Source: the human T2T-CHM13v2.0 reference genome, Homo sapiens
Assembly (NCBI RefSeq): GCF_009914755.1
Contig: NC_060928.1
Reading direction: 5' to 3' (one strand)
DNA length: 64,000 bases
Shown: positions 8,697 to 11,633 of the stretch, piece after piece
Position numbering within the stretch: the stretch's first letter is position 1
Layout of the letters: every line of letters begins with the position of its first letter
Notes under the pieces: model-generated
What the model was told of the DNA's origin: nothing
Databases searched by the model: none
What the model saw: the letters and a program-made list of their open reading frames with translations, nothing else
Position numbers and translations under genes: made by a program

Positions 8697-9196
8697 GGAG
8701 GCAGCCGTTGCTCTCATGGCACTCATCACTGTCTGCCTGGCGTCATGCGTAAGTACCCGGTTGCCCCTAAAAGATTGCAAGCTCTGTGGGAGCGGAAACT
8801 GTGTCTCATTCATCTCCTGCAGGCACTCAGGAAGGAGGAAGAAATGGATGAAGCCTCTTATGTCCTAAGGCCTGCTAAGGTGCTTATGTAATCAAATTTT
8901 ATCTTATCCTTATAATATGTGTTGCTTTACCTTTGATCACTGTAATGCCACTTATATAGCATGTTATAATTTATAAAGACATTTTCATATACTTTCTTTT
9001 TACCAACATTAATTTCCAACATCCTTCCATGCGTGTGATATTTTGCGGACAGTGTAGCTATCTGTTCTTTTGCCCCAAAATTACAACCAGCAGATGGCTG
9101 CCTCCATCCCCACTTAGAGATGTTGCCTGGCCGACAGCTCTCTGACTTCACAAAGAGGTCATCAGTCATCACAGAACCACAGAATCATGATGTGAG

Positions 9197-10857
9197 GGCG
9201 GCTCGCACCCCAGCGCGCACCCAGGCACCTTAGAGTCCCCGGCTTTGGCTCCCCTGGGTCCCCTGGTTGTGCGCCAGGCAAGATGTTGAGATGCACACTG
9301 GAAAACCGGAACGCTCAAACCAAGCAACTGCAAGCAGCTGTCTCAAATATGGAGAAGCATTTGGGAGAACTGTGCCAAGTCTTTGCTGCCTATGTGCGGA
9401 AAACTGCCAGACTGCGAGACAAAGTGGACCGAGGATGAATGAAATCAACTCATATGCCGCTACAGAGGCCCCACATCTAAGGCTGGGCCTGATGAACTTT
9501 GCTGATGAGTTTGCCAAACTTCAGGATTATTGACAAGCAGAGGTTGAAAGACTTGAAGCCAAAGTAGTTGAACCCTGGAAAGCTTATGGAACCATTGTAA
9601 AAATGAAACGGGATGACCCCAAAGCAACATTCACAGCAAGGAATCGAGAAGCTAAGCAATTAACTCAGGTAGAAGGAACAGGTCAGCGAAACCCACCTCA
9701 TCTGATCGACATGTTATTGTATCCTTTGAATTTCGACCTTTAAAAAAAACGTTTTTTAGGCCAGGCATGGTGGCTCACGCCTGTAATCCCAGCACTTTGG
9801 GAGGCTGAGGCGGGCAGATCACGAGGTCAGAAGTTCGAGACCAGTCTGGCCAACATAGTGAAATCCCATCTCTACTAAAAATACAAAAAAAAAAAAAAAA
9901 AAATTAGCCAGGCGTGGTGGTGGGCGCCTGTAATCCCAGCTAATCAGGAGGCTGAGGCAGGAGAATGGTGTGAATCCAGTGGTGGAGGTTGCAGTGAGCC
10001 AAGATCACGCCATTACACTCCAGCCTGGCTGACAGTGCAAGACTCTGTCTCAAAAAAAAAAAAATGTTTTTTTAAGGTTGTTACTGCCCAGCTCAGCCAG
10101 AAACCACATGAGGAGTGGCTCTTTGAGAGCCTGAGGGGCTCATTCCTGAAGGGAGTCCCTGGAGCAGGGGTTTGGGGCTGCGCCAATTGCTTGGTCCTTC
10201 TTCCTTTGGAGCAAAGGCAGACACAGAATTACAAAGAGCTGCAATGGATGCTACCCGAACAAGTCATCATCTGGAGGAAACTATTGACAACTTTGAAAGG
10301 CAGAAAATAAAGGCTATAAAGACTATATTTTCCAAATTTATCACAATCAAAATGTTATTTCACAGCAAAGCTTTAGAGGTCTACACAGCTGCCTACCAGA
10401 ATATACAAAAGATTGATAAGCATGAAGATTTAGATTTACATGTTTTCCTAAATTCCCTGTATGCACCAGATTATTCATCTCGTTTAGATATGGTAAGAGC
10501 AAATTCAAAGTCACCTCACCAGAGATCATGTCAGCTAAGTGTGTATCTGGAACAGGACAGGTATCCACTACCAACTAAGAAAGGATCAGCAAGCAGATGA
10601 TAATGAGGATGAAGAGTCAGATGTTACAGAAGAAGACAATTTTCTCAAGTAAACTACACATTTCCATTTTCATCATAAATGACATGAAATCCACAATGAC
10701 TAAATTGTAGAACTTTATACTCACTTTGATATGGTAAGCCTCAAAATGAAATTCAACTAGAAATGGAAAAATAATTAAAGGAAACTTACGCTGACCAAAA
10801 ATGAAGGCTTTAAAAAATATTACACACCAGTCATTTCAACATCCAAAAAAAAAAAAA
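9197..10857 (+). pseudogene. CIBAR1P2: Processed pseudogene of CIBAR1 (FAM92A1); probably CIBAR1P2/FAM92A1P2
   Basis: ATG 9283 MLRCTLENRNAQTKQLQAAVSNMEKH..ELCQVFAAYVRKTARLRDK; NEINSYAATEAPHLRLGLMNFADEFAKLQDY*; ADTELQRAAMDATRTSHHLEETIDNFERQK; EEDNFLK*(10652). GC-rich 5' UTR, poly-A 10845-10857, frameshift near 9430, stop at 9531-9533. The parent gene is secure; the P2 label is from memory of the locus. Confidence 0.92.
9759..10063 (+). mobile_element. AluS (Sg-like) inserted in the CIBAR1 retrocopy
   Basis: Full Alu; TSD aaaa(c/t)gttttt(t)ta on both sides. Confidence 0.93.
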
Positions 10858-11633
10858 TGACTTGAGCGTAGCAATTTGTTCTCTACTACAGGTGAGGGAA
10901 AGAAACCCTTGACCCTGAAAAGAAGTGTTTTGCTTAATATATTATCAGAACTGGGAAGAGGGTTGTCTCTTTTCTCCTCCTCCTCTTCTTTTTTAAATTA
11001 ACACCCCTTGTTTCCAAAAATCTATTCTATTAGCTTCAAATTGCCTTTTTGTTTCATTCTACTTTTCATTTAGATTGCCTTCTTTTGTTCTCATTTCTTT
11101 CTCTATTTCTTGTAAATTTTCATCTCTTCTTTGCTATTGTCCGTTTCTTTGAACCCTTCATATATTTATTGTCTAACCATGTAAAATGTGGTATGAACAA
11201 TAGTCATCTTATTCCCTTTCACTTAATTTTTTGGTATCATTTATTTTCTGTCCTTTCATCAGTGTCTCATTTTATGAATTTTCTACATTATCACTTCCTC
11301 CATTATTTCAATTATTTTTTCATTTAACATCCAGATGATCCAAAAACAAACAAACAAACAAAAAAACAAGTTCAGAGAATTATATTACAAACACCTGTGG
11401 GCCCACTATTCGGCTTTATCTGAAATTTTGCCAAATTTGTTTCAGGTTTTTGTTTTCTTGGGAAATAAAAAATAGGTTAAGAAAGTCCTCTTCTACTCCT
11501 GTTTTGGTAAAAACAAAATGTTATCATGAAGTGATGTTGAATTTTATCAAGAGCTATTTCTGTATTTCCCATGATGCTCCCATTTTTTCTCAATTTGTTG
11601 GTATGACAAAATAAACAAAATTTTCTGATTTTA

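What the first reader, a model, noticed from the sequence alone, without database searches (positions are those of the whole stretch)
9700..10230. Retrocopy fossilises a minor-intron (U12) bypass isoform of CIBAR1
Seen: coding similarity stops after ..GATCGACATGTTATT (DRHVI) and is followed by GTATCCTTT (9719-9727), the canonical U12-type 5' splice site. After removing the Alu and one TSD copy, about 42 nt of intron-like sequence remains, ending AAG. Then come 140 extra nt, and coding resumes at GCAGACACAGAA (A-D/E-TELQ), omitting the Ser-Gln codons of parental HVISQAETE (recalled). All other junctions are cleanly spliced. Inference: the source mRNA skipped the U12 donor, used a downstream major-class donor and an acceptor 6 nt inside the next exon, a nested U2-in-U12 twintron-like switch. 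The frame stays open through the extension and cassette, then shifts to a stop at 10308-10310, i.e. an NMD-type product. This suggests an old splicing rheostat that couples minor-spliceosome activity to a ciliary BAR gene.
Basis: partly seen in the sequence, partly recalled or inferred. Interest (0 to 1): 0.8.

Follow-up and report, generated by a model that had tools for sequence, protein, structure and literature searches.

The report
Retrocopy preserves CIBAR1 minor-intron bypass transcript
An old processed pseudogene on chromosome 4 is a copy of a CIBAR1 messenger RNA in which the gene's known minor (U12-type) intron was handled by ordinary splice sites instead; it is a tidy molecular fossil but adds little to what is already known about this gene.

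Summary
In CIBAR1P2, similarity to CIBAR1 exon 4 stops at 9718 and GTATCCTTT follows. An Alu with target-site duplications interrupts about 40 nt of intron-derived sequence. A 140-nt extra block follows, and coding resumes at 10217 without the Ser-Gln codons.

I mapped every piece onto the parent gene on chr8 of the same assembly.
- The parent intron starts GTATCCTTT.
- A GT donor lies 38 nt downstream of it.
- The extra block is a 152-nt intronic cassette with AG/GT borders.

One inference is wrong. Ser-Gln is not lost through an acceptor inside the next exon. It is encoded by a separate 6-nt microexon (TCACAG), which is the exon ending the 3000-nt U12 intron, and the source mRNA skipped it.

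The bypass mRNA has a premature stop in the cassette: 184 aa against 289 aa.

CIBAR1/FAM92A is already listed as a minor-intron gene with exactly this intron. Cryptic-exon use and downstream-exon skipping are already tabulated for human testis. Loss of minor-spliceosome function is already reported to lower CIBAR1.

New here are the exact isoform anatomy and its minimum age (P2 branch 0.08 substitutions/site, roughly 40-80 My). The 'rheostat' idea is untested. Interest is low to moderate.

The parts
9197..10857 (+). CIBAR1P2 retrocopy proper, including the later Alu. It runs from parent exon 1 to a proximal poly(A) site.
   Evidence: BLAST and three-way alignment to parent exons on C8. Similarity to the parent ends at 10844 and an A13 run follows.
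9612..9718 (+). Copy of parent exon 4, the exon upstream of the U12 intron. It ends ..CATGTTATT.
9719..9727 (+). Retained U12-type 5' splice-site motif GTATCCTTT.
   Evidence: The parent has the same motif at its exon end. The MIDB table gives 5'SS ATTGTATCCTTT, score 98.3.
9719..9758 (+). Intron-derived exon extension, 5' part with the first copy of the Alu target-site duplication. It corresponds to the first 38 nt of the parent intron, up to the downstream GT donor.
9759..10064 (+). Alu element with A-tail, inserted after retroposition. It is absent from the parent at this site.
   Evidence: Dimer halves (family D1).
10057..10076 (+). Second copy of the Alu target-site duplication, plus the end of the extension (..TAAG).
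   Evidence: family D4, 15 of 16 identical to 9742-9757.
10077..10216 (+). Copy of a 152-nt cassette exon from inside the parent's U12 intron (C8:94831113-94831264). P2 carries a 12-nt deletion.
   Evidence: AG precedes and GT follows the cassette in the parent. All three frames of the parent cassette hold stops.
10216..10217 (+). Junction of the cassette to parent exon 6. The 6-nt microexon TCACAG (Ser-Gln) is missing here.
10217..10321 (+). Copy of parent exon 6.
10132..10134 (+). TGA in the cassette frame that corresponds to the parent's reading frame.
10845..10857 (+). Poly(A) tail of the retrocopy.

Best explanation
CIBAR1P2 is a processed pseudogene. It was reverse-transcribed from one CIBAR1 mRNA molecule in which the major (U2-type) spliceosome, not the minor one, processed the region of the gene's single U12-type intron.

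The canonical route removes a 3000-nt U12 intron running from ATT|GTATCCTTT to a 6-nt microexon, TCACAG. The source mRNA took a different route:
1. It used a U2-type donor 38 nt downstream (AAG|GTATGG).
2. It spliced to a 152-nt cassette inside the intron.
3. It spliced from the cassette's donor to exon 6.

My inference is that the microexon was skipped as a consequence. Its only acceptor is the U12-type 3' end: a branch-site motif 13 nt upstream and no pyrimidine tract. A U2-type donor therefore has no acceptor before exon 6.

The resulting mRNA carries a stop codon in the cassette and should be an NMD substrate. The retrocopy later took an Alu insertion inside the extension and decayed.

Shown: the mapping, the splice-site borders, the microexon, the premature stop, and the relative ages of the two retrocopies.

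Inferred: the bypass arises when minor splicing is slow or fails, which is plausible in testis, where the gene is most expressed. Also inferred: it is a recurrent by-product rather than a tuned switch.
For: - Genome searches with the non-Alu pieces found only the parent on C8, CIBAR1P1 on C15 and the window itself. One search gave 5 matches from 5 candidates, all scored. One search gave 4 matches from 4 candidates.
- Parent sequence at the three sites.
- TCACAG occurs 5 times in the 8001-nt locus. Only the copy at L020:4680 has AG before it and GT after it.
- With the microexon the parent exons give a 289-aa ORF. The bypass order gives 184 aa ending in the cassette.
- Donor dinucleotides are GT at 10 of 10 sites. 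Acceptors are AG at 8 of 8 sites set correctly. The exon 9 border was off by one there and was corrected.
- The U12 intron I derive (C8:94830079-94833078, 3000 nt) has the same length as the published FAM92A minor intron. The published motifs are 5'SS ATTGTATCCTTT and branch site TTTTCCTTTATG, in human and mouse.
- In the same data set, human FAM92A passes the filter for a cryptic exon inside the minor intron (CAT9, index 0.94) and for downstream-exon skipping (CAT4, 0.88). It passes in testis only, 1 of 8 tissues. Expression is highest in testis.
- CIBAR1P1 carries the canonical junction.
Against: - A retrocopy samples a single molecule, so it says nothing about how abundant or regulated the isoform was.
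- The published tables give event categories without coordinates. I cannot show that the testis cryptic exon is this cassette.
- Those indices may be inflated, because a 6-nt exon is hard for read aligners (my inference).
- Under minor-spliceosome inhibition, the events tabulated for this gene are skipping of both flanking exons and a cryptic donor inside the upstream exon. The extension-plus-cassette route is not among them.
- In TALS patient cells only modest intron retention is listed: delta-PSI 0.02 in fibroblasts and 0.11 in lymphoblastoid cells.
- I could not consult transcript annotation or RNA-seq junction data.
Confidence: 0.88

Rival explanations
1. The bypass route is a selectively maintained poison-exon switch. 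Competition between U11/U12 at GTATCCTTT and U1 at the +38 donor would set CIBAR1 dose according to minor-spliceosome activity. The retrocopy would show that the switch is tens of millions of years old.
For: - All four U2-type sites used by the fossil mRNA are still intact in the parent.
- Non-CpG divergence between P2 and the parent in extension plus cassette is 14 of 170. About 22.8 differences are expected if both lineages were neutral (one-sided P = 0.026). The count is compatible with a nearly frozen parent lineage.
- The mouse gene also shows a cryptic exon in its minor intron.
- Canonical CIBAR1 mRNA falls by 69.9%, and the protein falls, in SCNM1-mutant fibroblasts.
Against: - The divergence test rests on 170 sites. 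It leaves out a 12-nt gap beside a poorly aligned stretch, and it ignores regional differences in mutation rate.
- By my arithmetic, keeping 8 splice-site bases unchanged at 0.08 substitutions/site is expected about half the time by chance.
- No inhibition data set I could read lists this route as the response.
- I could not test conservation outside human.
Confidence: 0.15
2. One reading: the U12 donor is skipped and an alternative acceptor 6 nt inside the next exon removes the Ser-Gln codons.
For: P2 lacks exactly 6 nt relative to CIBAR1P1 at this junction.
Against: - The parent's next exon begins at GCAGAAACGG, right after an AG. TCACAG is not part of it.
- TCACAG is a separate exon 1754 nt upstream, with its own AG and GT.
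- The published minor intron ends exactly at that microexon (length 3000 nt).
Confidence: 0.01
3. The extra segments come from an unspliced or partly spliced pre-mRNA (intron retention), or were acquired after insertion by recombination with genomic CIBAR1 DNA.
For: The segments are intronic in the parent.
Against: - The interval between exon 4 and exon 6 is 4760 nt. Of it, the source mRNA kept only the 190 nt of extension and cassette and lacked the 6-nt microexon. Both kept segments end exactly at GT or AG borders.
- Every other intron is cleanly removed and a poly(A) tail is present.
Confidence: 0.02

Closest known systems
Alternative splicing around minor introns: cryptic U2-type donor, cryptic exon and exon skipping (Olthof et al. 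2019, PMC6717393; Olthof et al. 2021, PMC8034651; review PMC8329584)
   Same: Same gene and same intron. FAM92A/CIBAR1 is in their tables with cryptic-exon use and downstream-exon skipping in human testis and in mouse tissues. The general rule that nearby U2-type sites are used when U12 splicing is not is stated in the review.
   Different: The tables give categories, not coordinates or whole isoforms. The fossil gives one complete molecule that combines a +38 donor, a 152-nt cassette and microexon skipping, and it puts a minimum age on that combination.
Processed pseudogenes as fossils of past splice variants (Shemesh et al. 2006, recalled from memory; I saw only that 8 held papers contain its title phrase)
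   Same: A retrocopy preserves a non-canonical splice isoform of its parent.
   Different: Here the isoform concerns a U12-type intron and a microexon. I did not read that paper and do not know whether this gene is in its lists.
U2/U12 twintrons or nested introns (Drosophila prospero; 18 conserved human cases in Janice et al. 2013, as summarised in PMC8329584)
   Same: A U2-type intron (extension donor to cassette acceptor, 996 nt) lies wholly inside the U12 intron, with separate splice sites.
   Different: - The bypass needs a second U2-type intron that runs past the U12 3' end and over the microexon.
- The outcome is a stop-containing mRNA, not two coding isoforms.
- The main text of Janice et al. 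does not name FAM92 (0 occurrences). I did not search its supplements.
Poison-exon / NMD-coupled alternative splicing
   Same: The cassette has stops in all three frames. The stop in the reading frame lies 67 nt before the cassette's 3' junction (counted from the sequence), and four more junctions follow.
   Different: NMD sensitivity and any feedback on CIBAR1 were not tested.

Membership tests
U12-type (minor) intron, GT-AG subclass (parent CIBAR1 intron, C8:94830079-94833078) | Extended conserved 5' splice-site motif directly at the exon end | tested here: met
   ATT|GTATCCTTT in the parent and retained in P2. The published score is 98.3.
U12-type (minor) intron, GT-AG subclass (parent CIBAR1 intron, C8:94830079-94833078) | Conserved branch-site motif close to the 3' splice site, without a long pyrimidine tract | tested here: met
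   TTTTCCTTTATG is followed by 11 nt to the microexon, which puts the likely branch A 13 nt from the intron end. The published score is 73.2 and the motif is the same in mouse. The accepted distance range is recalled, not tested.
U12-type (minor) intron, GT-AG subclass (parent CIBAR1 intron, C8:94830079-94833078) | Dependence on the minor spliceosome | not testable with these tools
   From papers only:
- The canonical transcript falls by 69.9% in SCNM1-mutant fibroblasts.
- Exon skipping occurs around the intron in U11-null mouse limb.
- Events pass the filter only in the U11 knock-out, and one event is affected by a U12 morpholino.
- Intron retention rises in TALS cells.
Processed pseudogene (retrocopy) | Introns removed at the parent's exon junctions | tested here: met
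   All eight junctions in P2 fall on parent exon, extension or cassette borders.
Processed pseudogene (retrocopy) | Poly(A) tail where similarity to the parent mRNA ends | tested here: met
   A13 at 10845-10857. The parent genomic sequence has no A run there.
Processed pseudogene (retrocopy) | Flanking target-site duplication | tested here: inconclusive
   Only a weak resemblance by eye between about 9178-9192 and 10854-10868, roughly 10 of 15 (flanks printed).
U2-in-U12 twintron (prospero type) | One U2-type intron nested in the U12 intron, so that either spliceosome removes the intervening sequence in one step | tested here: not met
   The bypass uses two U2-type introns separated by a cassette, and the second extends beyond the U12 3' splice site and the microexon. 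It fits the wider 'nested/interlocked' wording of the review.
NMD-targeted poison-exon isoform | Premature stop more than about 50 nt upstream of a later exon junction | tested here: met
   184-aa ORF ending in the cassette and stops in all three cassette frames. The 50-nt rule is established knowledge.
NMD-targeted poison-exon isoform | Transcript stabilised when NMD is blocked | not testable with these tools
   No expression data were available.

The most novel reading that the evidence does not exclude
The +38 donor and the 152-nt cassette form a selectively maintained poison route, at least about 40 My old. The cell uses it, together with U12-dependent inclusion of a 6-nt microexon, to set the dose of the ciliary BAR protein CIBAR1 according to minor-spliceosome activity, especially in the male germline. 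The lower-than-neutral divergence of the cassette and the testis-restricted events would be its traces.
Probability: 0.15. Interest if true: 0.55.

Novelty: new member of a known kind. Interest (0 to 1): 0.3.

Why it matters
CIBAR1 is a ciliary gene linked to polydactyly. Its loss of expression is one proposed route from minor-spliceosome disease (SCNM1) to cilia defects.

The fossil shows three things:
- The U2-type escape route around its minor intron, including the cassette and microexon skipping, already existed when P2 was made. So it is not a recent or disease-only aberration.
- The Ser-Gln microexon can be included only through the U12-type acceptor (my inference). This predicts how the gene fails when minor splicing is weak.
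- A 6-nt exon next to the intron may distort read-based splicing indices for this gene.

Beyond that it is an illustrative case, not a new mechanism.

Tried and rejected
- The first genome search with 9530-10330 was swamped by Alu copies: 68 matches, 40 of 6262 candidates scored. I repeated it with the non-Alu pieces.
- Intron retention or post-insertion acquisition is rejected, because the borders are exact splice sites.
- The cassette as a member of a repeat family: no further copies in the genome at this sensitivity, 4 matches from 4 candidates. It lies about 85 nt downstream of an Alu in the parent but is not part of it.
- GTATCCTTT as a statistical signal by itself is not significant.
- A second TATCCTT 27 nt upstream of exon 6 in the parent looks like chance: 3 matches in 8 kb against 2.0 expected, and 63 of 200 shuffles reach 3.
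- Flanking duplication of the retrocopy: inconclusive.
- Sources I could not use:
  - The AJHG 2022 SCNM1 paper (PMC9606384), which may describe the aberrant CIBAR1 products, is not held.
  - The supplements of PMC12956336 (U11 loss in mouse spermatogenesis) are unreadable.
  - File 4 of the PMC6800510 supplements was not searched.
- Paper searches surfaced no paper that links the pseudogene to this isoform or names the microexon.

Full report
**What is in the window**

- Similarity to CIBAR1 coding sequence runs to ..GATCGACATGTTATT (9704-9718).
- GTATCCTTT follows at 9719-9727.
- An Alu with its A-tail lies at about 9759-10064. Its flanking direct repeats are 9742-9757 and 10057-10072, 15 of 16 identical.
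- A 140-nt block lies at 10077-10216, and coding similarity resumes at 10217 (GCAGACACAGAA).
- The 9-mer itself is not unusual: 2 matches in the window against 0.84 expected by shuffling. The case therefore rests on where the pieces map.

**Mapping to the parent**

The window's own assembly is held.
- A first search was swamped by Alu copies.
- Searches with the non-Alu pieces found only three places: the window, a locus on C15 (CIBAR1P1) and a multi-exon locus on C8 (the parent gene). One search gave 5 matches from 5 candidates; one search gave 4 from 4.
- I fetched the parent and located all exons.

At the site in question the parent reads as follows.
- Exon 4 ends ..CATGTTATT and is followed directly by GTATCCTTT.
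- 38 nt later comes AAG followed by GTATGG.
- About 1 kb further, a 152-nt segment (85% identical to window 10077-10216) is preceded by a long pyrimidine run ending AG and followed by GTACAG.
- Exon 6 starts at GCAGAAACGG, directly after ..TTTTGTAG.

**The Ser-Gln codons**

CIBAR1P1 has ATT-TCACAG-GCAGAA at this junction. The parent's exon 6 does not contain TCACAG.
- TCACAG occurs 5 times in the 8-kb locus. Only one copy is preceded by ..AAATTTCAG and followed by GTGGGT.
- With this 6-nt microexon included, the parent exons give a 289-aa reading frame containing ..DRHVISQAETELQ...
- P2 therefore lacks Ser-Gln because its source mRNA skipped a microexon. It did not use an acceptor inside the next exon.

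**The intron is a known minor intron**

The interval from the end of exon 4 to the microexon is C8:94830079-94833078, which is 3000 nt.
- The supplement of Olthof et al. 2019 (PMC6717393; I saw supplement rows and text passages) lists FAM92A as a minor-intron gene in human and mouse.
  - The 5' site is ATTGTATCCTTT (score 98.3).
  - The branch site is TTTTCCTTTATG (73.2).
  - The human intron is 3000 nt long.
- Cologne et al. 2019 (PMC6800510, supplement rows only) list the same 3000-nt intron as U12-type. They report slightly raised retention in TALS patient cells.
- The branch-site motif sits 11 nt before the microexon.

**The isoform that was copied**

The three-way alignment of parent exons, P2 without its Alu, and P1 shows that every other junction in P2 is clean.

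P2's source mRNA had this order: exon 4, the 38-nt extension, the 152-nt cassette, exon 6. It used two GT-AG introns: 94830117-94831112 and 94831265-94834838.
- The first is nested in the U12 intron.
- The second overlaps the U12 intron's 3' end, the microexon and the following U2-type intron.
- This fits the broad 'nested or interlocked' description in a review (PMC8329584, passages). It is not a prospero-type twintron.

In the parent's frame the bypass mRNA stops inside the cassette, giving 184 aa. All three cassette frames hold stops. The stop lies 67 nt before the next junction, so the mRNA is of NMD type by the 50-nt rule (established knowledge).

Removing either duplication copy gives 40 or 43 nt, and in that frame P2 stops at 10109-10111. 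P2 is in any case already frame-shifted upstream, so its own frames carry no information.

**Mechanism**

My inference is that the microexon's only acceptor is the U12-type 3' end, which has no pyrimidine tract. Once U1 and U2 take over at the +38 donor, the next usable acceptors are the cassette's and then exon 6's. Skipping of the microexon would then follow from the bypass rather than being a separate choice.

This agrees with published events for the gene.
- The same categories appear in mouse, and expression is highest in testis.
- Retrocopies arise in the germline, so a testis-enriched isoform is a plausible source.

Caveats:
- The tables give no coordinates.
- A 6-nt exon may be missed by aligners, which would inflate these indices (my inference).
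- Under experimental inhibition of the minor spliceosome, the events listed for this gene are skipping of both flanking exons and a cryptic donor in the upstream exon. The cassette route is not among them.

**Age**

The analysis covered 1073 columns shared by all three sequences.

| Lineage | Private differences | Branch length (substitutions/site) |
|---|---|---|
| P2 | 82 | 0.081 |
| P1 | 13 | 0.012 |
| Parent | 9 | 0.008 |

- With assumed neutral rates of 1.0-2.2e-9 per site per year (recalled values), P2 is roughly 37-81 My old and P1 roughly 6-12 My old.
- The bypass isoform is thus at least as old as P2. The younger P1 records the canonical isoform.

**Is it a maintained switch?**

- In extension plus cassette, P2 and the parent differ at 14 of 170 non-CpG sites. 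About 22.8 differences are expected if both lineages drifted at P2's rate (P = 0.026), and 11.4 if the parent were frozen.
- This is a weak hint of constraint from few sites. It leaves out a 12-nt gap next to a poorly aligned stretch.
- Coupling of CIBAR1 to minor splicing is already published. Canonical transcript falls by 69.9%, and the protein falls, in SCNM1-mutant fibroblasts (PMC12750831, passages). Mis-splicing occurs in U11-null mouse limb (bioRxiv 10.1101/2022.11.10.516037, one passage).
- The original SCNM1 paper, which may describe the aberrant products, is not held.

**Verdict**

- One detail (the 6-nt acceptor) is wrong, and the truth there is a skipped microexon.
- The frame detail is not robust.
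- The regulatory claim goes beyond the evidence.
- It is a new example of two known things: retrocopies as fossils of splice variants (recalled; one search shows only that the title phrase is cited), and U2-type splicing around a catalogued minor intron.
- I did not search the pseudogene's names in the paper library and had no access to transcript annotation, so the exact isoform may already be annotated.

Noticed in passing
L020:4650-4700 (G000 C8:94833079-94833084): The exon downstream of CIBAR1's U12 intron is only 6 nt long (TCACAG, Ser-Gln). A U12-type 3' splice site and a U2-type donor (GTGGGT) are therefore separated by 6 nt, an extreme case for exon definition between the two spliceosomes. 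Read-based splicing indices for this gene may be distorted by it.
   Followed up: partly
window 10858-11633: The RefSeq transcribed-pseudogene model runs to 11633. Similarity to CIBAR1 ends at 10844 and an A13 tail follows (10845-10857), so the last ~780 nt of the model are flanking chr4 sequence, not retrocopied CIBAR1.
   Followed up: partly
L021:400-1840 (G000 C15, CIBAR1P1): The second retrocopy is much younger (branch 0.012 against 0.081). It has the canonical junction with the microexon. It carries its own Alu inside exon 3-derived sequence, with a 15-nt duplicated target. It also continues to match the parent's genomic sequence past P2's poly(A) site, so it came from an mRNA with a longer 3' UTR.
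   Followed up: partly
window 10430-10445: At the exon 7/exon 8 junction P2 has 6 extra nt (..GATTTAGATTTACATG..). This looks like a small tandem duplication rather than an alternative splice site, since no AG or GT in the parent would give it.
   Followed up: partly
L020:6411-6418 (parent, 27 nt upstream of exon 6): A second TATCCTT motif (ATATCCTT) sits just upstream of exon 6's acceptor. With 3 matches in 8 kb against 2.0 expected it is probably chance.
   Followed up: yes
window 9178-9196 and 10854-10868: A possible decayed target-site duplication of the retrocopy (about 10 of 15 by eye). It is too weak to call (flanks printed).
   Followed up: partly
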